Positions 10,322-64,000 of a DNA stretch of 64,000 nt are shown here, piece by piece. The stretch's first letter is position 1. The number at the start of each line of letters is the position of its first letter. Below the pieces are notes generated by a model. The model saw nothing but the letters and a program-made list of their open reading frames with translations, searched no databases and was not told the origin of the DNA. Source of the DNA: an uncultured Actinomycetes bacterium (GTDB lineage: Bacteria; Actinomycetota; Acidimicrobiia; IMCC26256; JACDBD01); assembly GCA_963737605.1 (NCBI GenBank), contig CAVTTE010000013.1, forward strand, positions 75,282 to 139,281. Direction: 5' to 3'. The position numbers were made by a program, and so were the translations under genes.

Positions 10322-10337
10322 CTGACACGAATGTCAG
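10322..10337. promoter_or_regulatory. Palindromic operator CTGACA-CGAA-TGTCAG
   Basis: Perfect 6-bp-arm inverted repeat in the divergent ADH/EEP intergenic region; the same core recurs at 20701 and 57791. Confidence 0.7.
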
Positions 10338-20700: not shown

Positions 20701-20714
20701 TGACATGGGTGTCA
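20701..20714. promoter_or_regulatory. Palindromic operator TGACA-TGGG-TGTCA
   Basis: Perfect inverted repeat 22 nt upstream of the MaoC/DUF35/thiolase operon start. Confidence 0.7.
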
Positions 20715-46773: not shown

Positions 46774-48714
46774 GTGGGGGGCCGCACCGCGAGGCGCGCA
46801 GTCACGTGTCTCGCTGTCGCGGGCGCGCTCGTCTCGACGGGTGTCACGGCCGCGGCGGAGCCGCGTTCCCCGGCGAAGCCGATCAGCCGCTGCGACTGGC
46901 CGATGTGGGGCCAGCGCATCGAGCGGCCGTTCGCGTCTCCGTGCCCCACCCAGCTCAGCCCGCAGACGGCGAAGGACCTGAAGCAGATCTGGTTCTTCAA
47001 CGCCAAGGACACCGTGACCGCGACGCCCGCGGTGGTCGACGGCGTCGCGTACGTCGGTGACTGGTCGGGCAACTTCTACGCGATCGACCTCGAGACGGGG
47101 AAGCCACGCTGGACCTACCAGGCGCACGTGCACGGCCAGGTGTACGCGGGGCAGATCGTCTCCTCGGCCGCGGTCGCCGACGTGAAGGGCGTGCGCACCG
47201 TGTTCTTCGCCGGCGGCAAGACGCTGTATGCGCTGCGGGCCGACGACGGCCGCGAGCGCTGGAAGCACGAGGTGGGCCGCCGCGGCGACGACAACGACCC
47301 CAGCGAGATCGAATCGTCCCCCGTCGTCGCCGACGGCATGGTCGTCTTCGGCACAGACGTGCACAACAGCGGGAACGGCGAGCCCGCGGCCGTGATCGCC
47401 GTGGACGCCGCCACCGGCAAGGCGCGCTGGACCACCGTGACCGCCCCGACCGAGGGTGAGGGCGCGACCGGTCCCGGGTGCGGCGACGTGTGGGGCTCGG
47501 CCGACCGTCGACCCGGCGGCGAAGCTCGTCTTCGTCGGGACCGGGAACTGCACCAGCAGCCCCGACGGCTACGGGCGATTCGCGGAGGCGATCGTCGCAC
47601 TCGACCTCGGTTCGGGCGCGGTGCGCTGGACCTACCAGCCTCACCAGCCCAACCGCGACGACCTCGACTTCGCCGGTGCGCCGAACCTGTTCGACGCCGG
47701 CGGTCGGGCCCTCGTCGGCCTCGGCAACAAGGACGCCGCGTACTACGCAGTCGACCGCGTCGACGGGCGAGCTCGTCTGGCGCACGCAGGTCACCGAGCC
47801 CGGCATCCCGCGGCCGAACACGAACTACTCGACCGGCGGCTTCATCGGCGCGACGGCCGTCGCAGACGGCGTCGTCGTGGGCGGCACCGCTGTCGGCGGG
47901 ACCCCGGCGCTCCACGCGCTCGACGCCGCCACCGGCGCGATCAAGTGGCAGCAGGCCGAAGCCGCCGACACGTACGCGTCGGCCGCCATCGCCAACGGTG
48001 TCGTGTTCCTCGGCAGCACGACCGACTTCACGCTTCCGGGCCCTCGACCTGCAGACCGGTGAGGTTCTCTGGTCGAAGGAGCTTCGTGGCGGCGTCGCCG
48101 GTGGCGCCGCGATCGTGGGCGACGACGTGATCGCGGTGGCCGGGATCCGCGAGCCGGGCGTCGGCAACCGGAATCGCAACAGCGGCGTCTACCGCTTCTC
48201 GCTGCGCGGCAAGCCCGTCGCGTCGGCGCCGACCACGACGAAGCCCCCGCCGCCGACGCCGCCGAACCCACAGGCGGCCGCGCAGGCGTGTGTCGCCGCC
48301 CCGTGCAACCTCAACTTCGACCTCACGAAGGACCGCGTCGCGGACGACACCGGCACCGGCACGGTGCAGGTGTCGCTCGACCCGTTCAAGGTCGTCGTCC
48401 AGGCCGACGGGCTCGGCGATCCGACCCGCTGGCTCCGGCCCGGCAGCGCGGCGCAACAGGCGGGCGCGACGACCTACGCGGTCTACCTGTCGCAAGGGAC
48501 CGACAACCCGGCGGGCGGGCTGGTCTGCACCCTCGACGCCGACAACGACTGCACGGCGACCAAGCTGCCGGGCCGCCGCGGCGCGACGTACGACCGGATC
48601 AGCATCCTCGCGGTCAAGGACCCGAAGAAGCTGCCGTCGCTCGCCGAGGGCTTCGACCGGCTCGTCACGACCAACGCGATCGACATCCCGATCACACCGA
48701 AGGCGAGGAAGTGA
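46774..48714 (+). CDS. Secreted PQQ-type beta-propeller protein (PVA-dehydrogenase-like; indels)
   Basis: CDWPMWG, TATPAVVDGVAYVGDWSG, repeated A-x-D-xx-TG-xxx-W motifs, CGDVWGS, DLDFAGAPNL. Confidence 0.8.
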   Translation: MGGRTARRAVTCLAVAGALVSTGVTAAAEPRSPAKPISRCDWPMWGQRIERPFASPCPTQLSPQTAKDLKQIWFFNAKDTVTATPAVVDGVAYVGDWSGNFYAIDLETGKPRWTYQAHVHGQVYAGQIVSSAAVADVKGVRTVFFAGGKTLYALRADDGRERWKHEVGRRGDDNDPSEIESSPVVADGMVVFGTDVHNSGNGEPAAVIAVDAATGKARWTTVTAPTEGEGATGPGCGDVWGSADRRPGGEARLRRDRELHQQPRRLRAIRGGDRRTRPRFGRGALDLPASPAQPRRPRLRRCAEPVRRRRSGPRRPRQQGRRVLRSRPRRRASSSGARRSPSPASRGRTRTTRPAASSARRPSQTASSWAAPLSAGPRRSTRSTPPPARSSGSRPKPPTRTRRPPSPTVSCSSAARPTSRFRALDLQTGEVLWSKELRGGVAGGAAIVGDDVIAVAGIREPGVGNRNRNSGVYRFSLRGKPVASAPTTTKPPPPTPPNPQAAAQACVAAPCNLNFDLTKDRVADDTGTGTVQVSLDPFKVVVQADGLGDPTRWLRPGSAAQQAGATTYAVYLSQGTDNPAGGLVCTLDADNDCTATKLPGRRGATYDRISILAVKDPKKLPSLAEGFDRLVTTNAIDIPITPKARK

Positions 48715-49863
48715 TGACGCAACGACGTCGACTCCGTCCGATGCTCGTGGGAGCGGTTGCCGCGGTCGCGCTCGTCGCGGCGTGGGCCGCGCCCGGCGGG
48801 ACCACCCGACCCGCACAGACGTCATCGAAGGGGGTCATCGTCTTCAACGGCGAGGGGAACAACCTCAACGCCTATGCCGCGGATCCGCCGTTCACGAAGC
48901 AGAACGTGATCCGCAACCACGACGACGACCCGAACGGGCTCGACATCAATGCCCAGATCTGCTTCTTCCCCGACGGATCGAAGCGCTTCATCGCCGGCGA
49001 GGACACCGGCCAGCCGAACCCGCCCCAGGGCTGGGGGATCTTCCAGCTGAAGGGCGGCACGGTCGGCAAGCTCTCGGCGAAGAAGGTCGGCAAGCTCACG
49101 CCGACGTACCAGCCCAGCAACGACAACGCCGAGAACTACGGGTGTGGGTTCCTGTCCGACGGACGAGTGCTCACGACCGACATCGGCAACCAGGCGTCGG
49201 GCCCCGAGGACGGACAGCTCATCGTGTGGTTCCCGCCGTTCAACACCACCAACGTGCGCTACTGCAAGATCGACGTCGGCATCGCGACGGCGGGCGGCAT
49301 CTACGTCGACTCGAAGAATCGCGTGTACGTCCCGTCGGCGTCGTCCGCCGACCGCGGGGGTGGTGCGGTACAGCGGGCCCTTCCCCACCTCGGACACCGC
49401 CAAGGGCGGTTGCGGCGCGAAGGACGCCACCGGCGCCCCCATGGCGCCGTCGGTGAAGAAGGAGCAGTTCATCGGGCTCGGGAACGGCCTCGCCGCACCG
49501 ATCGCGATCGTGCGGGCGCCGAAGAACGACTTCTATGTCTCCAGCGTGATCAGCGGCGTGATCAACGAGTACGACGCCAACGGCGGCTACGTGCGGACGA
49601 TCCTGCAACCGCCCGCCGGCGAGACCCTCGGCGAGACGACGTTCTCGACCGGGACGCCGCTCGGGCTCGGCGTCGGCCCCGACGGCACGCTGTACTACGC
49701 CGACATCGGGATCACGATCACGAGCGAGGGCATCGGTCCGGGTCCGGAGGGCACGGTGCGCCGGATCCGTTTCGTCAACGGCCAGCCGCAGCCGCCGGAG
49801 ACCATGGGCGGCGGCCTCGCGTTCCCGGACGGCATCGGCGTGTACGCGCCCAAGAAGAAGTGA
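48714..49863 (+). CDS. Secreted beta-propeller protein (NHL/SMP-30-like; one indel)
   Basis: Signal peptide; repeats TAGGIYVDSKNRVYV, TPLGLGVGPDGTLYYAD, GLAFPDGIGV. Confidence 0.65.
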
Positions 49864-50551
49864 GCGACTGAGCCGACGTGGGCGGCTCGGATTGCGAGCA
49901 CATCGGTCAGGGTCTGCTCGCGCAGCCGGCCAACACGCTGTCGAGCCTGGCGTACGTGCTGGCGGGCGTGCTGCTCCTCCGGCGCGCGCTCGCCGGCCGC
50001 GTCCGGGCGCGCGCATCGTGCCGGCCGTGTACGCGGTGACGGTGATCGGCGTCGGAATCGGCAGCGCGGCGTTCCACGGTCCGATGCCGGCATGGGGCCG
50101 CTTCGGGCACGACCTCTCGATTGCCGCGGTGCTCGCGTTCGTCATCGGCTACGACGTGGCGCTCGCCCGTGGCGCTTCGGCGAACGCGGGCCTGGCGATG
50201 TTCGTCGGGATAGCCGGCGCGTGCGCGGTGGTGCTCGCGGTCTCGCCCGACGCCGGCAACGCGCTCGACGCGGTGCTCGTCGCCGGAGCGGTCGTCGCGG
50301 AGATCGGCGCCTCCCGCTCGGCCGCGGGGCGCGCAACGGCCGACGGGCGGCTCTGGATCGCGATCGTCGGCGTGGTCACGATCGGCGCGCTCCTCAACGC
50401 GCTCGGTCGCACCGATGCGCCGCTCTGTGAGCCGGAGAGCCCGGTGCAGCTGCACGCGGTCTGGCACGTGCTCACCGCGTTCGTGCTGTGGCTGTACGGG
50501 TCGGCCGTCTTGGGGCCGCGTGAGCAGGCTCGGCCTAAGATTCGGGCGTGA
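49860..50551 (+). CDS. Ceramidase-like (CREST superfamily) membrane hydrolase (indels)
   Basis: DCE...QPANTLSSLAY; GIGSAAFHG (SxxxH); HDLS; QLHAVWHVL (HxxxH). Confidence 0.75.
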
Positions 50552-51978
50552 CTTCCCCGGTTCGGGTTCTGGCCGTGGGCGCGGCCGCGCCCGCACGGCG
50601 ACTGGCGGCCGCCGACGTCGCCGCCGCCTGGGGTCGCGGCGGCGGGCGGGGCCAGGTCGGGGTGTGCGCCCCCGACGAGGACGTGCTCACGCTGGCGGCG
50701 GAGGCTGCGTCCCGCGCCATGGCGGCCGCCGGGCTCGAGAACGACATCGTGGACGGCCTGTGGTGGGGCACCACCCGTCCGCCCTTCGCCGAGGGGCCGA
50801 GCCACGCCGTCCTGGCCTCGGCGCTGGGGCTGTCGGCGCACTCCGGCGGCGCGCTGTTCTCGGGGTCGCCGCACGCGGGGATGGACGCTCTGCTCGGTGC
50901 GTACGACGCGATCGCCGCCGGGAGCGCACAGGTTGCGCTCGTCGTGGCGGCAGACGCGCTCGTGCCGGGGCCGGGCACCACGTTCGAGGAGCGCGCCGGC
51001 GGGGGCGCGGCTGCCGTCGTGCTCGTCTCGGAGGGCGGCCACGCGTCGCTGCCCGCCCGCGTCACCCGCACACATCCGTTCCTCGACCGCTACCGCTCCG
51101 ACGCCGACGACGGGACGCGCGATCTCTACGACGCGCGCCTGTTCCGGGAGGAGATCTTCCTGCCGGTCGTGCAGGAGGTCGGCGAGCAGCTCGCCGCGCT
51201 CGAGATCGACGAGTGGTCGCTCCCCGACCCCGACGGCCGCCTCGGCGCGACCGCCGCGCGCAAGCTCGGAGGCGGCGCGCCCGCCTCGGCGAGTGTGTAC
51301 GCCGCCATCGGCGACACGGGTGCGGCCGCCCCGCTCCTGGGCGCGCTCGGCTCGCTCGACGCCGCGCGGACCGTCGCCGTCGTCGGCTTCGGTGGAGGAC
51401 GCGCCACCGGGATCGTGATCAACGCCGACGGCCCCGTGCGCGGCGCGGCGACCGTCGGTGACGCGTGGGCCGGCGGTCAGTCGATCTCGTACGCCGAGGC
51501 GTTGCGCGCCCGCGGGCAGCTTCAGGCCGTCGGCGAGACCATCCCGATGGGCGTCCCGCCCGAGAGCGCGCTGTTCGTGCGCGGCGCGGAGGAGATGCTC
51601 GGGCTCCTCGGGGCCCGGTGTGTCGACTGCGGCACGATCAACACTCCGCCGACGATCCACCCGTACTGCATCAGCTGCGGCAGCACGAAGTTCGTGCTGG
51701 TCTCGCTGGCCCGTCGGGGGGTCGTGCACACGTTCGTCGTCAACCACACGATGCCCCCACCGTTCGAGGCGCCGTTGCCCCTGGCCGTCATCGACCTCGC
51801 CGACGGCGCGCGCGTGATGCTGCAGGTGATCGGCGACGGGAGCGACATGCGGATCGGCGCCGAGGTCGAGCTGGTGCTGCGCCGGTACGCCTTCGAACGG
51901 GGCGTGCCCGTCTACGGGTTCAAGGCCCGGACGATCGCGACGCGACCGCGAATCGAGCGAGGAGTAGCGGAGCACGCC
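50548..51978 (+). CDS. HMG-CoA synthase/KAS III-like domain fused to DUF35 Zn-ribbon/OB-fold; in frame with the thiolase in this sequence
   Basis: DEDVLTLAAEA, GGGAAAVVL, IGDTGAA, RCVDCG...CISCG, LVLRRY...YGFKAR. Confidence 0.85.
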
Positions 51979-53154
51979 ATGGGTTGGAATCGCGTAGCCG
52001 TGGCCGGCGCCGGCCTCATCAAGTTCGGTGAGCTGTTCGAGCAGAGCTACGAGCAGATGGCGGCGGGGGCGTTCCAAGCTGCGGTCGCCAACGTCGACCG
52101 GGGCGTCGAGCCGGAGCAGATCGACGCCGTGTTCGTCGCCACCCAGCGGGGGACGCTCTGGGGCCAGGAAGGGATCGGCGGGAACACGGTGCCGACCGCC
52201 ATCGGCCTCGCCGGCGTCCCGTGCACGCGGATCGAGAACGCCTGCCCGTCGGGCTCGGATGCGTTCCGCGTCGGCGCGATGGCCGTGGCGAGCGGGGTGC
52301 ACGACGTCGTCCTCGTCATCGGGGTCGAGAAGATGCGCGACAAGTCGACCGAGGAAGGCCTGCTCTCGCGGGCTGCGGCCGGGCATCCGATCCTGACCCG
52401 GGGTGAGACCGCGCCGGTGCTGTTCGCGCCCTTCGCCACCCGCCACATGAACGACTACGGGACGACGCGCGAGATGCTCGCCTCCGTCGCCGTGAAGAAC
52501 CACCACAACGGCGCCCGCGACCCGTACGCGCACTTCCAGAACGAGATCACGGTCGAGAACGTCCTCGACTCGCCGCCCGTGTGCCATCCGCTGCACCTGC
52601 TCGACTGCTGCCCGCAGACGGACGGCGCCGCGGCCACGATCCTCGTCAACGCCGATCGGGCCGCCGAGTTCACGGACAAGCCCGTGTACGTCGCCGGCTT
52701 CGGCGTCGCCACCGACCACCCGTACCTGCACGAGAAGCAGAGCTTCACCGGCCTCAAGGCCACGACCCTCGCCAGCGAGCGGGCGTACCGGATGGCGGGG
52801 GTCGACCCGAGCCAGATCGACTCGGCCGAGGTGCACGACTGCTTCACCATCACCGAGATCCTCGACGTCGAAGACCTCGGCTTCTTCGACAAGGGCAAGG
52901 GAGGCGTCGCTTCGCTCGAGGGCGAGACCTCGCTCACCGGCCGCATCCCGATCAACACGTCGGGCGGCCTCCTGGCGAAGGGGCACCCGATCGGCGCCAC
53001 CGGCGTCGCCCAGCTCACCGAGTGCTGGTGGCAGCTGCGGGGCGAGGCGGGCGAGCGGCAGGTCGAGATGCGCAACGGGTACGCGCTCCAGCACAACGTG
53101 GGCGGCCGCGGCTCGGGCGTCTCGGTCGTCAACATCCTCACGACCAACCGGTAG
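51979..53154 (+). CDS. Thiolase (SCP2/archaeal-type)
   Basis: IENACPSGSDA, EVHDCFT, NTSGGLLAKGHPIGATG, HNVGG. Confidence 0.92.
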   Translation: MGWNRVAVAGAGLIKFGELFEQSYEQMAAGAFQAAVANVDRGVEPEQIDAVFVATQRGTLWGQEGIGGNTVPTAIGLAGVPCTRIENACPSGSDAFRVGAMAVASGVHDVVLVIGVEKMRDKSTEEGLLSRAAAGHPILTRGETAPVLFAPFATRHMNDYGTTREMLASVAVKNHHNGARDPYAHFQNEITVENVLDSPPVCHPLHLLDCCPQTDGAAATILVNADRAAEFTDKPVYVAGFGVATDHPYLHEKQSFTGLKATTLASERAYRMAGVDPSQIDSAEVHDCFTITEILDVEDLGFFDKGKGGVASLEGETSLTGRIPINTSGGLLAKGHPIGATGVAQLTECWWQLRGEAGERQVEMRNGYALQHNVGGRGSGVSVVNILTTNR

Positions 53155-53161
53155 GCGGCTG

Positions 53162-53956
53162 GTGCTGCGCGTCGAGACCGGCGCCGACCACGTCTGCCGC
53201 GTCACGCTCGAGCGGCCCGAGGCGAAGAACGCACTGACCGTCGAGATGCGCGACCAGCTCGTCGAGGCGGTCCGGGCCGCCCGCGCCGATGCCGACGTGC
53301 GGGCGCTGCTGATCACCGGGACGGGCGACGCCTTCTGCGCCGGCATGGACCTCGGAGCATCGACGGTCGCGCAGGCGGGCCGGGAAGGCTTCGACACGCG
53401 TGCTACCGCGGAGGCGCTGCGCGTCGGCGTGCAGGCGTTCATCCGCGAGCTGTGGGAGCTCGACAAGCCGACGGTGGCGGCGGTCAACGGCGTCGCCGTC
53501 GGCCCCGGCGCCCACCTCGCCCTCGCGTGCGACTTCGTGCTCGTGCACAACGCCACGCGCTTCCTCTGGTCGTTCCACCGCTGGGGCCTCGTCGTCGACG
53601 CCGGCGGCGCGTACCTGCTCCCCCGCCTCGTCGGGCTCCCCCGCGCCAAGGCCATGGTGATGCTCGGCGAAGGATGCACCGGCGCCGAGGCGGTCGACCT
53701 CGGGCTCGCGTACCGGTGCCTCGAGCCCGACGAGCTCGAAGGCGAGGCGTCGGCGCTGGCGGCGCGCCTCGCTGCCGGGCCGACACGCGCCCTCGGGCTC
53801 TCGAAGCGCCTCCTCAACGAGAGCTTCGAGACCGACCTCGCCGACTCGCTCGAGCGCGAGGCCGCGTACCAGTCGCTCGCGACGACCTCGGGTGACCTCG
53901 TCGAGGGCATGGCCGCGTTCAAGGAACGACGCGACCCGCGGTTCACGGGGCGATAG
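53162..53956 (+). CDS. Enoyl-CoA hydratase/isomerase (PaaG-like, Asp in GLVVDAGG)
   Basis: AFCAGMDL, KPTVAAVNGVAVG, FHRWGLVVDAGG, FKERRDPRFTGR. Confidence 0.9.
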   Translation: MLRVETGADHVCRVTLERPEAKNALTVEMRDQLVEAVRAARADADVRALLITGTGDAFCAGMDLGASTVAQAGREGFDTRATAEALRVGVQAFIRELWELDKPTVAAVNGVAVGPGAHLALACDFVLVHNATRFLWSFHRWGLVVDAGGAYLLPRLVGLPRAKAMVMLGEGCTGAEAVDLGLAYRCLEPDELEGEASALAARLAAGPTRALGLSKRLLNESFETDLADSLEREAAYQSLATTSGDLVEGMAAFKERRDPRFTGR

Positions 53957-53958
53957 GC

Positions 53959-55143
53959 GTGCAGCTCGCGTGGGGTCCCGAGGAAGAAGCGTTCCGAGCC
54001 GAGCTCGTCGCGTTCCTCGACGAGCACGTGCCGCACGAGGCGGACGCAGGCTTCGACTACGCGGACTCCGGCGAGCGGGACGAGGGTGAGCTCATCCCGG
54101 CGTGGTCGCGCGCGTGGCAGGCGACGCTGTTCGACCACGGCTGGATGATCCCCGCCTACCCGCCCGAGCTCGGCGGCCGGAACTGCACACCGGTGCAGAC
54201 GCTCATCTACCTGGAGGAGATGGCACGCCGCCGCGTCCCCCGGTCGATGCACTTCCCCGGATACGCGATCGTCGCTCCGAGCCTCCTCGAGTTCGGGAGC
54301 GACGAGCAGCGCGAGCTCGTGCCGGCCGCGATCCGCGGCGACACGATCTGGTGCATCGGCATGAGCGAGCCGAACGCCGGCTCCGACCTCGCCGGCTTGT
54401 CCACCCGCGCCGAGGTCCACGACGACCACTTCGTCGTGAACGGCCAGAAGGTGTGGACGAGCTACGCCATGGCGGCGCAGAAATGCTTCTGCTACGTGCG
54501 GACCGACCCGAGCGTGCCGAAGCACAAGGGCATCAGCCTCCTCATCATGGACATGGACACGCCCGGCATCGACATCCGCCCGCTGCGCCACATCAGCGGC
54601 GCCGCGAACTTCGCCGAGGTGTTCTTCAGTGACGTCGTCGTCCCGCGCGAGAACCTCGTCGGGACGCTCAACGACGGATGGCGGATCACGCAAGGCTCCC
54701 TCGCGCACGAGCGCGCCGGGCTCTGGGTCGAGGGCGTGTCGCGCCTCGAGTCGACCATCCACGGCCTCGTCGGCGTCGCGACACGTCGCGGCCTCATCGA
54801 CGATCCGATCGTCCGGCGCCGGCTCGCGGAGCTCTCCGAGCGCGCCGCCAGCCTGCGCGCCCTCGGCTACAAGGGGTTCTCGAGCTTCGCCCAGGGCAGC
54901 TCGGCGCCCGAGCACTCGTTCATGAAGATGGCGACGTCGGAGCTCGGCAAGGAGTGCTGGGAGTACGGCATGGAGCTCCAGGGCGCGTACGGCGCGGTCG
55001 CCGACCCCGACCGCGGCGAGGAGGACGGCCGCTGGGTCATGGGCTTCTTCATGAGCTTCGCCAACACCATCGCCGGCGGCTCGTCCGAGATCCAGCGCAA
55101 CATCATCGCCCAGCGCGTGCTCGGGCTCCCGAGGGCCAGGTAG
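53959..55143 (+). CDS. Acyl-CoA dehydrogenase (full-length subunit)
   Basis: GMSEPNAGSDLA, NGQKVWTS, TIAGGSSEIQRNIIAQRVLGLPR. Confidence 0.93.
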   Translation: MQLAWGPEEEAFRAELVAFLDEHVPHEADAGFDYADSGERDEGELIPAWSRAWQATLFDHGWMIPAYPPELGGRNCTPVQTLIYLEEMARRRVPRSMHFPGYAIVAPSLLEFGSDEQRELVPAAIRGDTIWCIGMSEPNAGSDLAGLSTRAEVHDDHFVVNGQKVWTSYAMAAQKCFCYVRTDPSVPKHKGISLLIMDMDTPGIDIRPLRHISGAANFAEVFFSDVVVPRENLVGTLNDGWRITQGSLAHERAGLWVEGVSRLESTIHGLVGVATRRGLIDDPIVRRRLAELSERAASLRALGYKGFSSFAQGSSAPEHSFMKMATSELGKECWEYGMELQGAYGAVADPDRGEEDGRWVMGFFMSFANTIAGGSSEIQRNIIAQRVLGLPRAR

Positions 55144-55145
55144 CC

Positions 55146-56135
55146 GTGGACTTCACGCTCTCGCCCGACCAGGAGCTGCTGCGCGACACCGCGCGGCAGC
55201 TGCTGCGACGTGAGTGTCCGCCCGAATTGCTGCGGGCCCACATCGACGATCCCGCGGCGGCGGACCCGCTGTGGCGGCACCTGCGCGACTTCGCCGCCCT
55301 CGGTGACGGCCCGCTCACGGACCTGTGCCTGTTCGCCGAGGAGACGGGTTACGTCGCCGCTCCGGGCCCGTTCTTCCCGACGGCAGCGCTGTTCTCCCCG
55401 CTGCTCGGCGCCCTCGGTCACGAGCTCCTGTCCCCCGCCGTCGCCGGCGAGATCACCGGCACGGTCGCGGTCGCGGGCGCCGACGGCGTCTGGCAGGCGA
55501 ACGACGACCGGGTGAAGACGTTCGTGCCCGAGGCGGACCGGGTGGACTGGGTCGCGGTGGTGTCGAGCGGTCCGGCGGTGACGCTCGTGCAGTCACCGTC
55601 CGTTCGACAGGTGATGACCGTCGACTTCTCGCGCCGCATGTTCGAGGTGGAGGTCGGCCCGGGCTCGGGGCCGGCGCAGTCCGTCGACCCCGAGGCGTTC
55701 GAGACCGTGCTCGAGCGGGCGACGGTCGCGCTCGCAGCCGAGATGGCGGGCACCGCCCGCCGGCTGTTCGACATGACGCTCGCGTACGCCAAGGAGCGCG
55801 TGCAGTTCGACGTGCCGATCGGCTCGTTCCAGGCGATCCAGCACAAGCTCGCCGACGTGGCGCTCGATCTCGAACGGGCGACCAGCGCCGTGTACTACGC
55901 GGCGATGGCGATCGACGCCAAGGACGCCGACCGGCATCGGGCGACGCACGTGGCGAAGGCGGCGGCCGGCACCGCTGCCACGCGCGCGGCGAAGGACGGC
56001 ATCCAGGTCCACGGCGGGATCGGGTACACGTGGGAGCACGACCTGCACCTGTTCATCCGCCACGCGTACGGGTCCGAGGCGTGGCTCGGCACCCGCGACT
56101 GGCACCACGACCGCCTCGCCGAGCTGCTGTTCTGA
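55146..56135 (+). CDS. Acyl-CoA dehydrogenase (short partner subunit)
   Basis: DFTLSPDQELLR, YAKERVQFDVPIGSFQAIQH, QVHGGIGYTWEHDLHL. Confidence 0.92.
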   Translation: MDFTLSPDQELLRDTARQLLRRECPPELLRAHIDDPAAADPLWRHLRDFAALGDGPLTDLCLFAEETGYVAAPGPFFPTAALFSPLLGALGHELLSPAVAGEITGTVAVAGADGVWQANDDRVKTFVPEADRVDWVAVVSSGPAVTLVQSPSVRQVMTVDFSRRMFEVEVGPGSGPAQSVDPEAFETVLERATVALAAEMAGTARRLFDMTLAYAKERVQFDVPIGSFQAIQHKLADVALDLERATSAVYYAAMAIDAKDADRHRATHVAKAAAGTAATRAAKDGIQVHGGIGYTWEHDLHLFIRHAYGSEAWLGTRDWHHDRLAELLF

Positions 56136-56901
56136 TCAGGCGGGTCGTGCTGCGACACGCGCGAGCGCGTCGGCGATGAACGGGTAGGCGGCGTCGGCCC
56201 ACGCCGTGTGACCGATCCGGTTGGGGTGGAAGAGGTCGGCGCAGAACATCTCGGCGGTCCGGAACCGCGCGTCCGTGAGCTCGGCGATCGGGACCTTCAC
56301 GACGTGGTCGTGGCGGGCGGCGACCCGGGCGTGGGCACGGTCGAAGGCCGCGCTCCGCCGGGACGCCAGCGCCTTCAGCGGGTGCGCGAGCCGGGGGATG
56401 TTGCCGAGGTCGCCGATGCCCGTGAGCACGACGTCCGTTCCCGCCTCACCGAACGCCTCGACGACGGCGTCGAGATCGGCTTCGAAGCGTCGCAAGCCGC
56501 GTGCCGTGGGTCGCGTCGTTCGCGCCGACCGACACGACGGCGACGTCGGGCCGCAGGCGCTGCGCTTCCGGAACCTGACCGACGAGCACGTCACGCACCC
56601 TCGACCCGCCGGCGGCGACGCTCACCAACCGGATGCGCAGATCGGCGGCGAGTCGTCGCACCACCTGCCGGGACCACAGATCGTCACACGACTCGAGCCC
56701 GGGACCGGTGACGGTCGAGTCGCCGAGCAGGACGAGCCGAACCTCGGGGGCCGAATCCGGCCCGAACACGCAGTCGGGATCGAGGTCGCGGAAGCTCGGG
56801 AGCGGACGGTGCGCGACGTACCAGAACTGCGCCGCGACCGTCCCGACCGCGGCCATGGCCGCGAACGGGACCCCCGCCGCTCCCGCCAGCCCGAGTCGCA
56901 T
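56136..56901 (-). CDS. SGNH/GDSL hydrolase (one indel)
   Basis: LLGDSTVTG, SVGANDA, DLFHPNRIGH. Confidence 0.88.
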
Positions 56902-56963
56902 CCGCGCTGCCACGGGCACATTCTCCGACGCCGCGCACAGGATCGGGTGGATTTCGGAGCGAA

Positions 56964-57743
56964 CTACGAGCGGAGCGCGCCCGGCTCGTCGAGCCAGCGG
57001 TTCAGCGCCGCCGTCCGGGCGTTGCGGCAGATCAGCACGTGCTCGACGACGCGGCGGACCCGGCGCTGCTGCCCGGCCGTGACCGCCACCTGCCGCAGCA
57101 GGTAGTCGGCCTCGACGCCCGTGGTCCTCCTCGGCATAGGCGTGCACCTTGAAGTTCTCGACCTCGATGCCGTAGTGGTCCCGCATGCCCTCGTACATCT
57201 TCACCGCGTAGTTGGTGGAGGCGGCGAAGCGCTCGCCCGCCCAGCCGAAGGCGGCCAGGCCCTCCTCGTACGACCGGCGCATGTAGAAGAGCGTCGTGAA
57301 CACCGAGCCGATCGACTCGGGCATGGCGCGGTACGACACGAGCTCCTCGTCGGTGATGCCGAGCTGGTGGGCCCAGTCGACCTTCATGTCGAGGTGGTTG
57401 CGGTCCCCCGCGAAGCCCATCTCGTCGGCGAGGTTCTGCGCCCAGTGGACGAAGTGCTCGCTGCTGCCGAGATCGACGGCGTCGACGTCCGGGCGCGTTC
57501 GACACGATCGAGCCGAACTCGCTCGTGTACCACTTGCCGAGGAAGTAGTACTCCTTGCACAGCCGCTTGAGCAGGTCCATCGACAGGGTCCCGTCGGCGA
57601 CCCGCTCCCACACGAGGTTCTTCTCGGTCGCGACCTCGGCTTGGAGCGCCTCGAGCGACGACCATGAACTCGTCGACCGGCTGCGCGGGCGCGTTCTCGG
57701 CGCCGGACCCGCGGATGTCCCGGAACTCGCGGTGCTCGGACAT
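56964..57743 (-). CDS. Heme-oxygenase-like diiron enzyme (TenA/PqqC/CADD superfamily; frameshifted)
   Basis: Reconstructed helices with NLADEMG...NHL, AGER, FKVHAYAEEDHG: an E-x8-H / E / H-x3-E-x2-H ligand set. Confidence 0.75.
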
Positions 57744-57790
57744 GGCCGCTCCTCTATCTCCGCCTGACGACCGAAGGCTACGATATAGGG

Positions 57791-57804
57791 TGACATAGGT
57801 GTCA
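57791..57804. promoter_or_regulatory. Palindromic operator TGACA-TAGG-TGTCA
   Basis: Perfect inverted repeat centred in the 106-nt divergent gap between the diiron enzyme and hydantoinase B genes. Confidence 0.72.
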
Positions 57805-57849
57805 GATTCGCCCGTCGCATCAGGTCACGCGCGGCCAGGAGAGTCCGTC

Positions 57850-59670
57850 ATGAACGTCGATCTCGTCCAGCTCGCCGGCCATCGGGGACGTCTCCACGAT
57901 CGCCCCACCGTCGACCAGGTGACGGCCGAGGTGATCCGGGGCGCGATGGAGACCATCTGCTTCGAGATGGCCACCTACGTGTCGCGCACGGCCACGACGC
58001 CGATCCTCAACCAGAGCAACGAGCGCAACGCGACGATCCTCGACGCACAGGGCCGGCTCGCCGCCCTGTCGGTCGGCATCCCGCAGTTCATGCTCACCTC
58101 CACGCTGCCGGTGCGCTTCGCGCTCGAGTACCTCGGGCGTCGACGAGTTCCACGAAGGCGACGTGTTCGCGGCCAACGACCCGTACCACGGCGGCGGCCA
58201 CCTCCCCGACTACAACGTCTTCGCGCCCGTCTTCGGCGACGATCCCGAACACGGGTGAGCGGCGGATGGTGCTCATCGCGAGCATCCAGTGCCACCACGG
58301 CGACACCGGCGGCGACGTGCCGGGTGGCTACAACGTCACCGCCAACGACATCTGGGGCGAGGGTGTGCGCTGGCCGGTCGTGAAGGTGATCGACCGGGGC
58401 GTCGAGCGCCGCGACGTGCTCTACGCGATGGCGGCCAACAACCGCCTGCCCGACTACATCGGCGACCTGCGCGCGCAGATCGGCGCCGCGCAGCTGGCCG
58501 CCGACCGCCTCGGCGACATCATCGACCGCTCCGGCGTCGACACCGTCGAGCAGTCGGTCGACTTCATGATCGACTACGCGGCGCGCCGGTTCCGCGAAGA
58601 GGTCACCGCGTGGCCCGACGGCGTCTACGAGGCCGACGCGTACGTCGACCACGACCCGCTCGGCAACCCCGACATCCACCTGCACGTGAAGATCACCGTC
58701 GACGGCGACGACCTGACGATCGACTACACGGGCAGCGACACGCGCCAGGAGATCCAGGCGTGGTCGACGTTCGGCAACACCCGCGGGTACACGGTCGGCC
58801 AGATCGCGTCGATGATGGACCCGGAGATCCCGAAGAACGAGGGGTTCTTCGACCAGATCAAGCTGATCGTGCCGCAGGGCTGCGTGCTGAACCCGCACCC
58901 GAGCAAGCCGGTGAGCGCGGGCACGCACCACCCGGGCGCCGACGTCGGCGAGGTCATCGCGGTCGCGATGCAGCACGTGCTGCCGGACAAGGCCGTGCCG
59001 CAGACCTACAAGACCGGCATCCCGACGATCATCGTCGGCGTCGACCCGCGCACGGGCCAGTCGTTCACCGACCACTCGGCCGAGGTGTACGCGGGCTGGT
59101 GCAACGCCGGCAAGGGCATGGACGCGTGGGGGGCGCAGAACGCGGCGTTCGGCAACCTCTGGAAGGCGACGGCCGAGATCAACGAGAGCCTGTACCCGCA
59201 CGTGCAGTGGAGCCGCGACTACCGCACCGACTCGGGCGGCCCGGGCCAGTGGCGCGGGCTGTGCGGCAGCCACTACGAGAAGGAAGTGCTCGTCGACGCC
59301 AAGGTCTACACGTACGTCGTCGGCATGAAGTACCCGATGCCGGGCATCTGCGGCGGCGAGCCCGGCGCGCCGAACAAGATGGTGATCCGCTACGGCTCCG
59401 ACGACCCGTTCGTCGTGCAGCACACCGCCGACTGGGTGCCGATCGACGGCGGCGCAGCGCGTCATGTACGACTACGGCGGCGGGGGCGGCTGGGGCGACC
59501 CGCTCGACCGTGACCCGCAGGCCGTGCTCGACGACGTGCTCGACGAGTACGTGAGCGTCGAGGGCGCCGAGCGCGACTACGGCGTCGTGCTCACCGGCTC
59601 GCTCGAGGACCTCACGCTCGCGGTCGACGAGGAGGCGACGGCCGCCCTTCGCGCACAGCGTCGCGGCTGA
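57850..59670 (+). CDS. Hydantoinase B/oxoprolinase family subunit (indels)
   Basis: SRTATTPIL, ANDPYHGGGHLPD, CHHGDTGGDVPG, DSGGPGQWRG, GGGGWGDPLDRDP. Confidence 0.92.
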
Positions 59671-59671
59671 C

Positions 59672-61762
59672 ATGGGCTACCGGGTGGGCGTGGACGTCGG
59701 GGGGACGTTCACCGACCTCATCTGCGTGACGCCCGACGGCGAGGTCGTGCTCGACAAGACGCCGACCACGCTCGACGACCAGTCGATCGGCGTCATGAAC
59801 GGCCTCGCAGCAGCTCGCCGACCGGTTCGACCGCCCGCTCTCCGAGCTGTGCGCCGAGCTCGACATCCTCGTGCACGGCACCACCACCGCCGACAACACG
59901 ATGATCGAGATGAACGGCGCGCCGACCGGCCTGCTCGTGACCGAGGGGCATCGCGACGAGATCGAGATGCGCCGCGTCCACAAGGAGCAGATCTGGGACC
60001 CGACGTACCCGGCACCGCCGCCGATCGCGCGCCGCCGGGCGCGCATCCCGATCCCCGAGCGCATGAACTTCCGAGGGCGAGGTGCTGCACGCCGCTCGAC
60101 GAGGACGCCGTCCGCCGGGGCGTGCGGCGGCTGCAGCAGCTCGGCGTGCAATCGATCGCGGTGATGTTCCTGTTCTCGCTTCGTGAACCCGGAGCACGAG
60201 CGACGCGCCGCCGAGATCATCCGGGAGGAGTTCCCCGACGTCGACCACGTCTCGCTCTCGCACGAGGTGATGGCGCGCGGGCCGGAGTTCGAGCGGGTGT
60301 CGACGACGCTCGTGAACGCGTACGTGGCGCCGAAGATCGCCGCGTACGTCGGCCGGCTGCAGGAGAAGCTGCGCGCCGCCGGCTACGGCGGGCCGCTGCT
60401 CATCATGCAGTCGACCGGCGGGGTGATGCCGCCCGACTACGTCGCCCGCCGGGCGGTGTCGCTGCTGGCGTCCGGCCCGACCGGCGGCGTGATGGGCGCG
60501 GCGCTGGCCGCGGGCAAGGCCGGCGTCGAGGACTTCATCGCCGTCGACATGGGCGGCACCAGCTTCGACCTGTGCCTCGTGCGCGGCGGGCAGCCCGAGA
60601 TCAAGACCGACTGGAACTGGCGCTACCGGTACTACATCGGCCTGCCCATGGTCGACGTGCAGAGCGTCGGCGCCGGCGGCGGGTCGATCGCCCGCGTGCG
60701 CCAGGGCGCGCTGCTCGTCGGTCCCGAGAGCGCCGGCTCCGCGCCCGGACCGGTCTGCTACGGCCGCGGCGGCGACCCGCCCGACGGTCACCGACGCCGA
60801 CGCCGTGCTCGGGTACCTCCCGCTCGACGGGTTCGCCGGCGGCCGCATGACGCTCGACGTCGACGGCGCGCGCGACGCCATCCAACGCGACGTCGCCGAG
60901 CCGCTCGGACTCGACGTCGTCGAGGCCGCGTGGGGCATCGAGCGCATCGTGAACGCCAACATGGCCAACGCGACCCGCCGGGTGCTGGCGTCACACGGCG
61001 CCGACGCCCGCGAGCTCGCGCTGATCGCGTACGGCGGCAACGGCGCCGTGCACGCGTGGGCGATCGCCACCGAGCTCGGCATCGACCGCATCCTCGTCCC
61101 GAAGGCGGCGCCGGCGTTCTCCGCCCTCGGCGTCCTCGTCGCCGACTACGTCGTCGATCTCGTGCGCGCCTACGTCGTCCCGCTGTCGCAGGTCGACCTC
61201 GGCGCGGCTGCGCGCGCTCATGTCGCGAGCTGCAGCGACGAGGCCGCGCAAGGAGCTCGACCCGACCGGTCTCGCCGACGACGCAGGTCGACGTCGGCCT
61301 GTTCGCGCAGATGTGCTACCCGGGTCAGAACTTCGACATGAGCGTGCCCGTCCCCGAAGGCGACGCGCTCGACGAGCCCGGGCTCCTCGACCTCGCCGAG
61401 CGGTTCCACGACCAGCACGAGGCCGACCGCGGCTTCTGCTTCCGCAACCAGCAGCCGTTGCTGCGCGGCGTGCGGCTCGTCGCCCGCGGCTACACGCCCA
61501 AGCCCGAGCGCCTCGGCGCCGCTCGGCGCGGTCACGCGACGCGACGGCGGCGCGGCGAGGCACCGGCGCGCGTACTTCGGGCCCGAGTTCATGGGGTCGG
61601 GTTCGTCGACGCGCCCGTCTACGACGGCTCCGCTGCTCGGCCCCGGCGTCGAGGTGCGCGGGCCCGCGCTCGTCGAGGAGCCGTTCACGGTGGTGGTGCG
61701 TTCCGCCGGGCGCGACGGCTCGCCTCGACGAGCTCGGCAACTACGCGCTCACGGTCTCGTAG
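59672..61762 (+). CDS. Hydantoinase A/oxoprolinase family ATP-binding subunit (frameshifted)
   Basis: GVDVGGTFTD, HGTT, EFERVSTTLVNAY, SGPTGG, DMGGTSFD, GAGGGSIA, GPESAGSAPGP. Confidence 0.92.
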
Positions 61763-61773
61763 CCTCCGCGTGC

Positions 61774-62346
61774 GTGCCGGTCTTCTTCGATCCTGAGTCG
61801 TACGCGATCGTCGAGGCGGCGTGCGAGCGGCTGATCCCGGCCGGCGGAGGGACACCCCGGCGCCACGGCGCTCGGCGTCGCCGACTACATCGACGGGCTG
61901 CTCGGCGCCTTCGCCGTCGACCCGCCCCGGATCTGGGCGGGCGGGCCGTTCTCGGGCCGGCACGGCGGCGAGGCGTCGTTCGGCACGTTCCTGCGCGCTC
62001 TCGCGCGCTCGAGGAGCTCGCGTGGCGCACGCGGATCGAGGGCTCGCAGGGCATCGCCGAGCGCGAGTTCAACGGGCCGGTCGCGGGCTGGCAGCAGCGA
62101 GTACCGCGACGGGATCGCCGCGCTCGGCCCCGACTTCGCCACGCTCGCCGCCGACGAGCAGGACGCGCGCCTCGACGCCGCGCCGGAGTTCAAGCAGCTG
62201 CTGTACGGGCACGCGTGCGAGGGCGCGTACGGCGCGCCCGAGTACGGCGGCAACCGCGACCTCGCGCGGCTGGCGAGGCGATCGGGTTCCCGGGCGACGT
62301 GCAGCCCCGCGGCTACACCGACGACGAGGTGACCGGCCGTGACTGA
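61774..62346 (+). CDS. Gluconate 2-dehydrogenase subunit 3-like protein (frameshifted)
   Basis: IVEAACERLIP, VADYID, EGAYGAPEYGGNRD, IGFPG. Confidence 0.8.
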   Translation: MPVFFDPESYAIVEAACERLIPAGGGTPRRHGARRRRLHRRAARRLRRRPAPDLGGRAVLGPARRRGVVRHVPARSRALEELAWRTRIEGSQGIAEREFNGPVAGWQQRVPRRDRRARPRLRHARRRRAGRAPRRRAGVQAAAVRARVRGRVRRARVRRQPRPRAAGEAIGFPGDVQPRGYTDDEVTGRD

Positions 62347-64000
62347 TCGCGATTGCGACGCGGTGATCGTCGGCAGCGGCCCGGCGGGTGCGACCGCGGC
62401 CGACGTGCTGACGGCGGCGGGCTGGTCGGTGATCATGCTCGAGAAGGGCCGCAACCACCTGCTCCGGCTCGAGCCGCCGTTCGCGCCGACGGGCGACGAT
62501 CAGCAACGACGAGATCAAGTTCATGCAGCGGCACTTCCTCGGCCCCGACCCGCTGCTCGAGCCGCGCACGTTCCGCCGCTCGGTCGAGGACGGCGATCGA
62601 GCCTTCACCGGCGACGTGAACAACCTGCCGTCGACGGTCGGCGGCGGCGGCTTCCACGCCGACGGCAAGCTGCCGCGCTTCCGGGAGGTCGACTTCCGCG
62701 CCCGCACCGAGCTCGGCCCGATCGACGGCGCCGACGTCGTCGACTGGCCGCTCGACTACGACGAGCTCGAGCCGTACTACGCCGAGGCCGAGCGCGTCGT
62801 CGGCGTGGCCGGCGATCACACCGCCAACCCGTTCGCGGCGTGGCGCTCCGGTCCGTATCCCGATGCCGCCGGGGCCCGACATGTTCTGCGCCGTGCTCAC
62901 GAGCGAGGCCGCCGACGCGGCTCGGCTACCACCCGTACCGCGCGCCGACCGGCGTGAACAGCGTCGAGTACGACGGCCGGCCGGCGTGCAACAACTGCGG
63001 CTTCTGCGGCTTCTTCGGCTGCCCGATCGACGCCAAGGGCGATCCGGTCGCGTCGCTCCGGCGCGCGCTGCGCACCGGTCGGTGCGAGATCCGCCCCGAG
63101 TCCTACGTGCGCGACGTCGTGCTCGACCGCACCGGGCGCCAGGCCCGCGGCGTCCGGTACCTCGACAGCGCGCAGCACGAGCACGAGGTGAGCGCCGGCC
63201 ATGTGGTGCTCGCGGGTGGCGCGTTCGAGACCCCGCGCCTGCTGCTGCGCAGCGGCATCGGCAATCCCGACGTCGTCGGCCGCTACCTCATGTTCCACTT
63301 CCAGACGCTCGTGCTCGGCATCTTCCCGTTCCGGCTGCACGCGCACCGCGGCCGGGCCGTGACGCACTGATGGACGATCCGATGATCCCGGACGCGGCGG
63401 CGTCCCGCGCCGCGCAGGGAGCCGGCCTCCCCTACTTCCGCGGCGGGATCGTCGAGCACGGCGGGGCCGGCCAGCCGATCATCGAGGCGATCCACCTGCC
63501 GCCCGGTGAGCTCCACTCCGCAGCTGATGGTCGAGTCGACGCTGCGCGACCGCATGGCGGTGTTCACGATGCAGGGCGAGGATCTCCCCCAGGCCACGAA
63601 CCGGGTCGACCTCGACCCGCACGTACGCGACGTGTGGGGATCACCGGCGGGACGGGTGACGTACACGCCCCACCGCCACGAGGTCGCGTGCGCCGAGCAC
63701 TGGGCGCCACGCTTCGAAGCCGTCATGCGCGACGCCGGCGCCGATACCGCGTTCTGGGTGACGTCGCCGCCCCGACCCGGAACCGAGTTCGAGGCGATGG
63801 ATCCCACGCCCATCTCGCGCCACGTCATGGGGACGGCGCGGATGGGCGACGACCCGCGCACGAGCGTCTTCGACCGGTGGCAGCGCCTCCACGACGTCGA
63901 GAACGTGCTGTGCACCGACTCGTCGGTGTTCCCGACGTCGACGGGCTACGGACCGACGCTCACGATCGTGGCGCTGGCGATGCGGGCGTGCAGTGCCCTC
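62339..64000 (+). CDS. GMC-family flavoprotein oxidoreductase (frameshifted; runs off the window end)
   Basis: IVGSGPAG, VGGG, WPLDYDELEPYY, CNNCGFCGFFGC, ETPRLLLRS, HVMGTARMG, PTLTIVALA. Confidence 0.9.

What the first reader, a model, noticed from the sequence alone, without database searches (positions are those of the whole stretch)
56964..64000. Diiron HO-like enzyme divergently paired with an ATP-dependent hydantoinase/carboxylase and a two-subunit GMC dehydrogenase
Seen: a heme-oxygenase-fold protein with a CADD-like ligand set (DEMG..NH, GER, VHAYAEEDH) shares a 106-nt promoter region, centred on the TGACA palindrome, with a tightly coupled hydantoinase B - hydantoinase A - gluconate-2-DH-subunit-3-like - GMC operon. 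An SGNH hydrolase follows the diiron gene. Established: HDO enzymes (CADD, UndA, SznF, BesC) perform N-oxygenation or C-C cleavage, and HyuA/B-family pairs are ATP-dependent lactamases or ketone carboxylases. I know of no described pathway combining them. Inference: an uncharacterised route that oxidises a substrate (GMC, HDO) to a lactam or ketone, which is then opened or carboxylated and fed to the co-regulated CoA-dependent operons.
Basis: partly seen in the sequence, partly recalled or inferred. Interest (0 to 1): 0.72.

Follow-up and report, generated by a model that had tools for sequence, protein, structure and literature searches.

The report
Optional diiron oxidase in catabolic regulon
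An uncultured soil actinobacterium carries an unstudied two-iron-type oxidase gene back to back with an ATP-driven ring-opening enzyme operon under one shared DNA switch, but relatives keep either part without the other, so the oxidase is likely an optional member of a large, undescribed nutrient-breakdown gene network rather than a fixed step of one new pathway.

Summary
Observation confirmed. After allowing for single-base assembly errors, the locus holds a CADD-like heme-oxygenase-fold protein (six 3His/3Glu ligands invariant in 80 of 80 homologs; CADD's sacrificial Tyr27/Lys152 replaced), facing hyuB-hyuA-subunit3-GMC across 106 nt centred on TGACA-N4-TGTCA. The linkage is real: hyuB is adjacent in 19 of 23 HDO genomes. 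It is not obligate: 34 of 53 genomes with the hyuB orthologue lack the HDO, 28 of 68 actinobacterial HDO loci have another neighbour, and the SGNH gene follows in only 17 of 71. The stable feature is the palindrome, which stays with each gene when they separate (65 of 68; 18 of 20; background 3%) and heads a genome-wide set of CoA-dependent catabolic genes. HyuAB fits the two-subunit lactamase branch, not the carboxylases. Best reading: an accessory O2-activating oxidase in an undescribed Acidimicrobiia catabolic regulon; substrates unknown. The scan had no sequence match to this protein but has noted catabolic CADD-like HDOs in other genomes.

The parts
56964..57743 (-). CADD-like HDO (258 aa in intact homologs); predicted 3His/3Glu dimetal site E107, H116, E170, H200, E204, H207; three assembly frameshifts near 57658, 57490, 57113
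57744..57849 (.). 106-nt divergent promoter region
57791..57804 (.). TGACA-N4-TGTCA palindrome (family consensus TGACR-N4-YGTCA), likely operator of a dimeric regulator; a TANNNT -10-like hexamer follows it on the HDO strand
57850..59670 (+). hyuB, hydantoinase/oxoprolinase beta subunit (about 608 aa); metal tetrad E58/H117/D120/H148 and Y160 (L024 numbering) align with CapB D41/H99/D102/H124/Y136
59672..61762 (+). hyuA, ATP-binding alpha subunit (about 690 aa) with DVGGTFTD, DMGGT and GxxPGP motifs
61774..62346 (+). gluconate-2-dehydrogenase subunit-3-like small subunit; no twin-arginine motif in 34 of 34 homologs
62339..64000 (+). GMC flavoprotein large subunit with Cys cluster (CNNCGFCGFFGC) like FAD-glucose/fructose dehydrogenase; ends 30 nt beyond the window
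56136..56919 (-). SGNH/GDSL hydrolase after the HDO; seen beside it in only 17 of 71 actinobacterial loci, all close relatives
50548..56135 (+). Conserved flank of the same island: HMG-CoA-synthase-like/DUF35 fusion plus thiolase (read through as one ORF here), enoyl-CoA hydratase, two acyl-CoA dehydrogenase subunits

Best explanation
The locus is the middle of a conserved Acidimicrobiia gene island in which a CADD-like protein with a complete six-ligand site and a hyuB-hyuA-subunit3-GMC operon share one palindrome, and the protein is likely an accessory two-iron oxidase of a genome-wide, likely catabolic regulon rather than an obligate partner of HyuAB. Mechanism, step by step. (1) Shown: the palindrome sits in front of both genes and in front of about 25 other operons for CoA ligases, acyl-CoA dehydrogenases, hydratases, thiolases, P450s and amidohydrolases. 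Inferred: a TetR-type repressor binds it over the promoter and releases it when a pathway intermediate accumulates. (2) Inferred from family: HyuA phosphorylates a cyclic amide with ATP and HyuB's metal site hydrolyses it, opening a lactam-type ring, possibly on a CoA-linked or bulky substrate. (3) Inferred from neighbourhood: the opened carbon chain is CoA-activated and shortened by the flanking dehydrogenase pair, SDR, hydratase and thiolase/DUF35 complex. (4) Inferred: the GMC pair is a cytoplasmic FAD/iron-sulfur dehydrogenase for an alcohol or hemiaminal of the same substrate class. (5) Inferred: the HDO binds two irons, activates O2 and oxidises a diffusible small molecule (C-C cleavage, desaturation or N-oxidation), widening the substrate range of the regulon in lineages that keep it. 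It does not cut its own side chains as CADD does.
For: Ligands invariant in 80 of 80 homologs. AlphaFold model pLDDT 92; best matches CADD 8va9 (Z 22.6, rmsd 2.5, 207 aligned) and FlcD (Z 22.3). W45 replaces Tyr27 in 80 of 80, and M182 replaces Lys152 in 79 of 80. Class sample of 251 genomes: HDO in 23, hyuB orthologue (75% identity or more) in 53, both in 19, adjacent in all 19. HDO-less genomes keep the same order thiolase-ECH-SDR-ACAD pair-[site]hyuB-hyuA-[site]sub3-GMC (GMC within the fetched stretch in 10 of 20 loci, thiolase module in 11 of 20). The palindrome stays upstream of the HDO in 40 of 40 hyuB-adjacent, 9 of 9 GMC-adjacent and 16 of 19 other actinobacterial loci, and upstream of hyuB in 18 of 20 HDO-less loci, against a 3% background. 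It gives 32-42 strand hits per genome against 0-2 for the control in 5 of 5 hyuB-bearing genomes. Downstream genes are catabolic families. HyuB scores 203 and 191 bits against caprolactamase and N-methylhydantoinase, 91 and 51 against the carboxylases.
Against: No substrate, metal or activity is shown for any protein. The HDO-hyuB head-to-head pair is the commonest arrangement (40 of 68) and is scattered over the HDO tree (7 changes, at least 3 forced by starred branches; quick tree only), which fits an old, selected link. HyuB carries Glu, as acetone carboxylase does, where the lactamases carry Asp (173 of 173 sequences with the motif). The genomes are 85-100% complete MAGs, so some absences may be gaps. 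The regulator is a candidate only: a one-mismatch site lies before the genome's TetR, and 7 of 14 homologs show a strict or loose site.
Confidence: 0.57

Rival explanations
1. Dedicated new route: the HDO and the GMC pair oxidise one substrate to a lactam that HyuAB opens. The HDO performs the O2-dependent entry step for a substrate that HDO-less relatives cannot use.
For: Adjacent and divergent in 19 of 19 genomes that hold both genes, in seven families. One shared operator. When hyuAB is missing locally the HDO still faces subunit3-GMC in 9 loci. The arrangement is spread over the tree.
Against: 34 of 53 hyuB genomes lack the HDO. A 15-locus clade has the HDO beside thiolases and an acyl-CoA dehydrogenase. 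9 of 9 non-actinobacterial loci have neither hyuB nor GMC nearby. The slot upstream of hyuB holds varied genes in HDO-less genomes.
Confidence: 0.2
2. HyuAB is a housekeeping 5-oxoprolinase or a similar metabolite-repair lactamase, and its place in the island is incidental.
For: No PxpA (PF03746) in 5 of 5 genomes searched, with a working control. In the 99%-complete genome G015 this is the only HyuB found.
Against: No match at 1e-100 in 189 of 251 class genomes. It keeps the catabolic operator in 58 of 60 loci. Its 55-75% paralogs also sit among CoA ligases, acyl-CoA dehydrogenases and thiolases. Confirmed oxoprolinases of this fold are fused proteins of about 1250 aa (PMC8453981, section 2.1). 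No direct comparison with OplA sequences was run.
Confidence: 0.1
3. HyuAB is a two-subunit ketone carboxylase that makes a beta-keto acid for the neighbouring CoA-dependent enzymes.
For: Glu at the gating position as in acetone carboxylase Glu89. Thiolase and CoA genes nearby would suit a beta-keto acid product.
Against: All described carboxylases need a gamma subunit and 3-5 genes (PMC5214803 section 7; PMC13677872 passages). The operon has two hyu genes in every locus drawn. The beta subunit is about 608 aa (hydantoinase-like). NCBIfam ApcD scores 99 against a cut-off of 1500. PF08882 was not found in 5 of 5 genomes, but the control did not ring.
Confidence: 0.08
4. The HO-fold protein is not a small-molecule oxidase: it is a self-sacrificing cofactor synthase like CADD (using Trp instead of Tyr) or a metal-free TenA/PqqC-type enzyme.
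For: CADD-type pABA synthases are the closest solved relatives. W45 is invariant at the Tyr27 position. JGI labels homologs 'PqqC'.
Against: No conserved Lys at or near position 152. TIGR04305 scores 42 against a cut-off of 200. No folate or pqq operon genes among the recurring neighbours. All six ligands are invariant.
Confidence: 0.07

Closest known systems
CADD/CT610 and NePabS-type 4-aminobenzoate synthases (HDO superfamily; PDB 1rcw, 8va9, 9pj4)
   Same: Seven-helix HO-like fold (Z 22.6) and 3His/3carboxylate ligand set in register.
   Different: About 20% identity. Tyr27 is Trp and Lys152 is Met; relay tyrosines 43, 141 and 170 are Leu/Phe, Gly and Asn (from the alignment). It sits in a catabolic regulon, not a folate cluster.
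Substrate-oxidising HDOs FlcD, HrmI, UndA, BesC
   Same: Same fold (Z 19.4-22.3); likely O2 activation at a diiron site on a bound small molecule.
   Different: The review read (PMC13108848, first of 6 parts plus term searches) describes characterised HDOs as natural-product or cofactor biosynthetic enzymes; this one lies among degradative genes. Identity 13-18%.
ATP-dependent caprolactamase CapAB (PDB 6yra) and N-methylhydantoinase (PDB 7hk5/9h03)
   Same: Best structural relatives of both subunits. Two genes in B-A order as for capBA, ATP motifs, metal tetrad, Tyr136 equivalent.
   Different: Far below the equivalog cut-offs (261 and 600 against 1000). Glu instead of Asp41. Embedded among CoA-dependent genes.
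IaaCE 2-oxoindoleacetate(-CoA) gamma-lactamase of anaerobic indoleacetate degradation
   Same: Precedent for a two-subunit lactamase inside a CoA-dependent degradation cluster (named in PMC8453981 and PMC5214803).
   Different: Not compared by sequence here. That the iaa cluster uses a molybdenum hydroxylase and a B12 mutase is recalled, not from a call; neither was seen among the neighbours.
FAD-dependent glucose dehydrogenase (6a2u) and fructose dehydrogenase (8xcm) large subunits
   Same: GMC fold, Cys cluster for an iron-sulfur centre, small partner subunit.
   Different: No twin-arginine motif on the small subunit (0 of 34) and no cytochrome gene in the operon, so likely cytoplasmic; substrate unknown.
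KstR/KstR2-type TetR regulons of actinobacterial lipid and steroid catabolism (recalled; KstR passages seen in PMC3388012)
   Same: One palindrome heading many acyl-CoA operons, with a TetR gene nearby.
   Different: Different operator sequence; TGACR-N4-YGTCA was not found described in the one motif search run.

Membership tests
HDO superfamily (3H/3C class) | Seven-helix heme-oxygenase-like fold | tested here: met
   Model pLDDT 92; Foldseek and VIA best hits CADD, FlcD, HrmI, UndA.
HDO superfamily (3H/3C class) | Three His and three carboxylate ligands in register | tested here: met
   E107, H116, E170, H200, E204, H207 align with the CADD ligands and are invariant in 80 of 80.
HDO superfamily (3H/3C class) | Binds a dimetal cofactor and activates O2 | not testable with these tools
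   Needs reconstitution and spectroscopy.
CADD/NePabS pABA synthases | Sacrificial Tyr27 and Lys152 | tested here: not met
   Trp in 80 of 80; Met in 79 of 80; flanking positions not conserved as Lys.
CADD/NePabS pABA synthases | TIGR04305 score above cut-off; folate gene context | tested here: not met
   42 against 200; no folate genes among recurring neighbours.
TenA / PqqC (metal-free HO-fold) | Lacks the dimetal ligand set; thiamine-salvage or pqq operon context | tested here: not met
   Ligand set complete; no PF03070 hit for P0004; no pqq operon among the neighbours.
ATP-dependent hydantoinase/lactamase (Hyd branch) | Two genes only; ASKHA ATP motifs in alpha; D/E-H-D-H metal tetrad in beta; beta about 570-610 aa | tested here: met
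   (tetrad motifs in 33 of 35 full-length homologs).
ATP-dependent hydantoinase/lactamase (Hyd branch) | ATP-dependent hydrolysis of a cyclic amide | not testable with these tools
   Needs assay.
Caprolactamase CapAB (equivalog) | NCBIfam NF050156/NF050157 above cut-off | tested here: not met
   600 and 261 against 1000.
Acetone / acetophenone carboxylase | Gamma-subunit gene in the operon; 3-5 genes | tested here: not met
   Only hyuB-hyuA in all loci drawn; criteria from PMC5214803 section 7.
Acetone / acetophenone carboxylase | Gamma subunit anywhere in the genome | tested here: inconclusive
   PF08882 not found in 5 of 5 genomes, but the control genomes did not ring either.
5-oxoprolinase (OplA type) | Groups with confirmed OplA in a family tree; acts on 5-oxoproline | not tested
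   No stored OplA reference sequence was available for a tree; only indirect evidence.
FAD/iron-sulfur two- or three-subunit sugar dehydrogenases (GDH/FDH type) | GMC domains, Cys cluster, small subunit | tested here: met
   Cys motif in 34 of 39 ORF pieces.
FAD/iron-sulfur two- or three-subunit sugar dehydrogenases (GDH/FDH type) | Tat export signal and cytochrome c subunit | tested here: not met
   0 of 34 small subunits with a twin-arginine motif; no cytochrome gene in the operon maps.
TetR-type catabolic regulon | Conserved palindrome upstream of many operons, above chance | tested here: met
TetR-type catabolic regulon | Identified regulator binds the site | tested here: inconclusive
   One-mismatch site before the TetR at G000:C13:161089; strict or loose site before 7 of 14 homologs; binding not testable here.

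The most novel reading that the evidence does not exclude
This HDO subfamily is a degradative diiron oxygenase that supplies the O2-dependent entry step of an undescribed pathway. In that pathway a new Glu-gated HyuAB clade opens (or, less likely, carboxylates) a ring on a CoA-linked natural product. All of it lies inside a class-wide TGACR-N4-YGTCA regulon that defines what abundant uncultured soil Acidimicrobiia feed on.
Probability: 0.22. Interest if true: 0.8.

Novelty: new variant of a known kind. Interest (0 to 1): 0.5.

Why it matters
Characterised HDOs are biosynthetic in the review read here, so an HDO wired into a degradative regulon extends the family's role. The HyuAB clade is very conserved (85% or more among the 120 best hits) yet has no characterised member. 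The palindrome gives a direct handle: it lists about 25-30 co-controlled operons per genome across several Acidimicrobiia families, so finding the ligand of one regulator could reveal the carbon source of a widespread uncultured soil group. The result also lowers the first claim: the enzyme combination is not one fixed pathway.

Tried and rejected
Single-sequence fold was useless (pLDDT 39); the alignment-based model was used instead. Plasmid collection: no HDO match; hyuB hits all under 60% identity (31-34% in the 30 rows shown of 398), so no cultured, annotated close relative was found there. Phylum sample: hyuB-clade matches in 12 of 401 genomes only. ESM Atlas on homolog P0010 returned only PF14518/PF03070 clusters. 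The sigma-70 promoter scan found nothing. Expression: RNA runs held only a small share of the words; one RNA-library contig of a relative spans the whole HDO gene (X16), but no silent control was laid and DNA may be present, so this is not used as evidence. A HyuA/B tree against characterised enzymes was not built because no reference sequences were stored; bit scores and published criteria were used instead. The careful HDO tree did not finish; the quick tree is quoted, with three short-flank loci (L023, L028, L042) left out. No complex prediction was run, since no binding is claimed. Literature: searches found no paper combining an HDO with hydantoinase genes or describing the palindrome; one search did not identify the 7hk5 paper. 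The library lacks most subscription journals. EdcR's operator (PMC8700777, passages) is a different sequence. PMC10433963 and PMC13154177 (passages) gave no link. Supplements were not read; the family tree in the supplement of PMC5214803 could refine where HyuAB falls. Rejected: pseudogenes; SGNH as a pathway member (17 of 71 loci); steroid catabolism as an assignment (similar enzyme families, but ring-cleavage genes were not searched, so it is left open).

Full report
Setting. The window is part of contig C13 of a 64%-complete assembly. Its nearest homologous loci are titled Acidimicrobiia or Actinomycetota. The assembly is rich in single-base errors. Against six close relatives, 34 frame-breaking indels fall inside the six genes of interest, each seen in at least 4 of 6 alignments. 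Short-read contigs from public runs lack the extra base at nine of these places (table cut). I therefore analysed intact homologs: P0004 for the HDO (98% over the largest piece), L024 for hyuB, L033 for hyuA, L037 for the small subunit and L034 for the GMC.

Observation. The gap between the HDO start (57743) and the hyuB start (57850) is 106 nt, with TGACATAGGTGTCA at its centre. hyuB, hyuA, the small subunit and the GMC are separated by 1, about 11 and minus 8 nt. The GMC ends 30 nt beyond the window.

The HO-fold protein. It scores above the PF14518 cut-off. An alignment-based model has pLDDT 92. Its best structural matches are CADD (Z 22.6, rmsd 2.5, 207 aligned) and FlcD (Z 22.3), then HrmI, UndA and BesC. 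The six CADD ligands map to E107, H116, E170, H200, E204 and H207 and are invariant in 80 of 80 homologs. That is the 3H/3C set described in PMC13108848 (I read part 1 of 6 and term passages). The sacrificial residues of pABA synthases, Tyr27 and Lys152 (PMC11965152, passages), are Trp (80 of 80) and Met (79 of 80), and TIGR04305 scores 42 against 200. So it is an HDO by fold and ligands but not a CADD-type synthase. Metal binding itself is untested.

HyuAB. Both subunits score best against caprolactamase and N-methylhydantoinase (beta 203 and 191 bits, alpha 424 and 418) and lower against the carboxylases (91 and 51; 362 and 259). The ATP motifs and metal tetrad defined in PMC8453981 (passages and section 2.1 part 1) are present. 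By the criteria of PMC5214803 (passages and section 7) and PMC13677872 (passages), carboxylases need a gamma subunit; none lies in any operon drawn. The genome-wide search for it was inconclusive. The pair is far below the caprolactamase cut-offs, so it is an uncharacterised clade. One feature points the other way: Glu replaces Asp41 in 173 of 173 sequences, as in acetone carboxylase. A plain oxoprolinase role is not excluded, since PxpA was not found in 5 of 5 genomes and G015 has no other HyuB. Against it are the patchy distribution, the shared operator and the CoA-gene neighbours of its paralogs.

GMC pair. Closest solved relatives are FAD glucose and fructose dehydrogenase large subunits. 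The Cys cluster is kept and no small subunit has a twin-arginine motif (0 of 34), so a cytoplasmic enzyme is likely.

Is the combination conserved? Among the 80 best of 118 HDO loci, I grouped 71 as actinobacterial and 9 as other. The 71 include three records with other titles but the same gene order and tree position. Three loci with under 200 nt upstream were dropped. Of the remaining 68, 40 face hyuB, 9 face subunit3-GMC and 19 have another neighbour, mostly thiolases and acyl-CoA dehydrogenases. None of the 9 others has hyuB or GMC in reach; their neighbours are P450s, amidohydrolases and dehydrogenases, read by eye from N-termini and cluster labels. In 251 class genomes the HDO was found in 23, the hyuB orthologue (75% identity or more, my threshold; 62 genomes matched in all) in 53, the GMC in 57, and HDO plus hyuB in 19, always adjacent. 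These tallies include unpublished genome G012 as one row; removing it gives 22, 52 and 18. Thus 34 of 53 hyuB genomes lack the HDO. A profile search found no HDO-like match in 7 of 8 of them and only distant ones in the eighth, while G000 and G015 rang as controls. I fetched 20 of the 34, chosen for long contigs; many show the same island with other small genes or nothing in the HDO's slot. On a quick HDO tree the hyuB-adjacent state needs 7 changes, so the link is old or recurrent but repeatedly broken. Related genomes are not independent, and no significance is claimed. SGNH follows the HDO in 17 of 71 loci, all close relatives.

The palindrome is the stable element. TGACR-N4-YGTCA lies within 300 nt upstream of the HDO in 65 of 68 actinobacterial loci, 0 of 9 others, and upstream of hyuB in 18 of 20 HDO-less loci, against 3% of random windows. 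A TANNNT hexamer follows it within 6-16 nt, mostly at 9-10, on the HDO strand in 57 of 67, so it overlaps the likely -35 region. The genome has 36 sites against 3-19 at other spacers. For 20 of the sites I scanned downstream ORF pieces: CoA ligases, CoA transferases, acyl-CoA dehydrogenases, MaoC-type dehydratases, SDRs, thiolases with DUF35, a P450, flavin monooxygenases, an aldehyde dehydrogenase and amidohydrolases dominate, with a few unrelated genes. Five hyuB-bearing genomes from four families have 32-42 strand hits against 0-2 for the control. Of five genomes without hyuB, four are at background and one has the regulon. A TetR with a one-mismatch site before its own start is the best candidate regulator.

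Reading. Shown: genes, ligands, linkage, its limits, and the shared site. Inferred: a repressor-controlled degradative regulon in which HyuAB opens a lactam-type ring with ATP, the flanking CoA enzymes shorten the product, the GMC pair oxidises an alcohol-level intermediate, and the HDO is an optional O2-dependent oxidase. I give this 0.57, the dedicated route 0.20, housekeeping oxoprolinase 0.10, carboxylase 0.08 and a CADD-like or metal-free role 0.07.

Novelty. Eight paper searches (listings and abstract starts) found no description of this combination or palindrome; the library omits most subscription papers and I read no supplements. The scan's own notes have no sequence match but report CADD-like HDOs in catabolic clusters of other genomes; these are unchecked leads that agree with my reading, which was written down before I saw them. 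Each part belongs to a known family. The new element is an HDO subfamily without self-sacrifice residues, placed in an apparently undescribed catabolic regulon. Verdict: new variant of a known kind, interest 0.5.

Noticed in passing
window 10323-10336 and 20701-20714: The two other perfect palindromes head a Zn-dehydrogenase / amidohydrolase-3 divergon and a MaoC-DUF35-thiolase operon, members of the same regulon.
   Followed up: partly
G000:C13:161050-161820 (L141:5090-5821) and G000:C6:530730-531200: Two related TetR genes; the first has a one-mismatch palindrome just before its start and faces a MaoC-SDR operon. Best candidate regulator.
   Followed up: partly
window 50548-53154: HMG-CoA-synthase-like domain fused to DUF35, then a thiolase: a PhlABC / archaeal thiolase-HMGCS / BbsAB-type module. 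In the alignment the HMGS-like part lacks the catalytic Cys. Two genes in relatives, one ORF here.
   Followed up: partly
L153:8279-10084 and L154:8254-10038: hyuB paralogs (73-74%) with no hyuA called beside them, next to amidohydrolases; L154 also has a ferritin-like diiron-type ORF upstream (by eye). A stand-alone beta subunit would be unusual.
   Followed up: no
L135-L140: In another actinobacterial family a 53-58% paralog forms a hyuA-hyuB-thiolase operon (5 of 6 loci), again tying this clade to CoA chemistry.
   Followed up: no
hyuB codon 58 (window about 58021): Glu at the CapB Asp41 position in 173 of 173 sequences, matching acetone carboxylase Glu89.
   Followed up: partly
L103, L110, L113 (after hyuA); L038, L058 (before the HDO); L144: A roughly 830-aa protein that looks like a GH38 mannosidase (motif read by eye, not scanned) recurs beside hyuA or the HDO in unrelated arrangements.
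   Followed up: no
L176:3012-3665 (G000:C6:about 707010): The palindrome also precedes a lipoate-ligase-like gene, which may connect to an earlier scan note on an HDO beside such a gene.
   Followed up: no
L039, L064, L089: Records titled Burkholderiales or Acidobacteriota carry the Acidimicrobiia gene order, palindrome and tree position; probably mis-binned or mislabelled.
   Followed up: partly
G038: Has the palindrome regulon (42 strand hits against 0 control) but no match to the HDO, hyuB or GMC queries, so the regulon is wider than this island.
   Followed up: no
window 46816-50515: Beta-propeller (PQQ-type) protein, a predicted lipoprotein and a ceramidase-family membrane protein precede the thiolase module and travel with the island in several genomes.
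   Followed up: no
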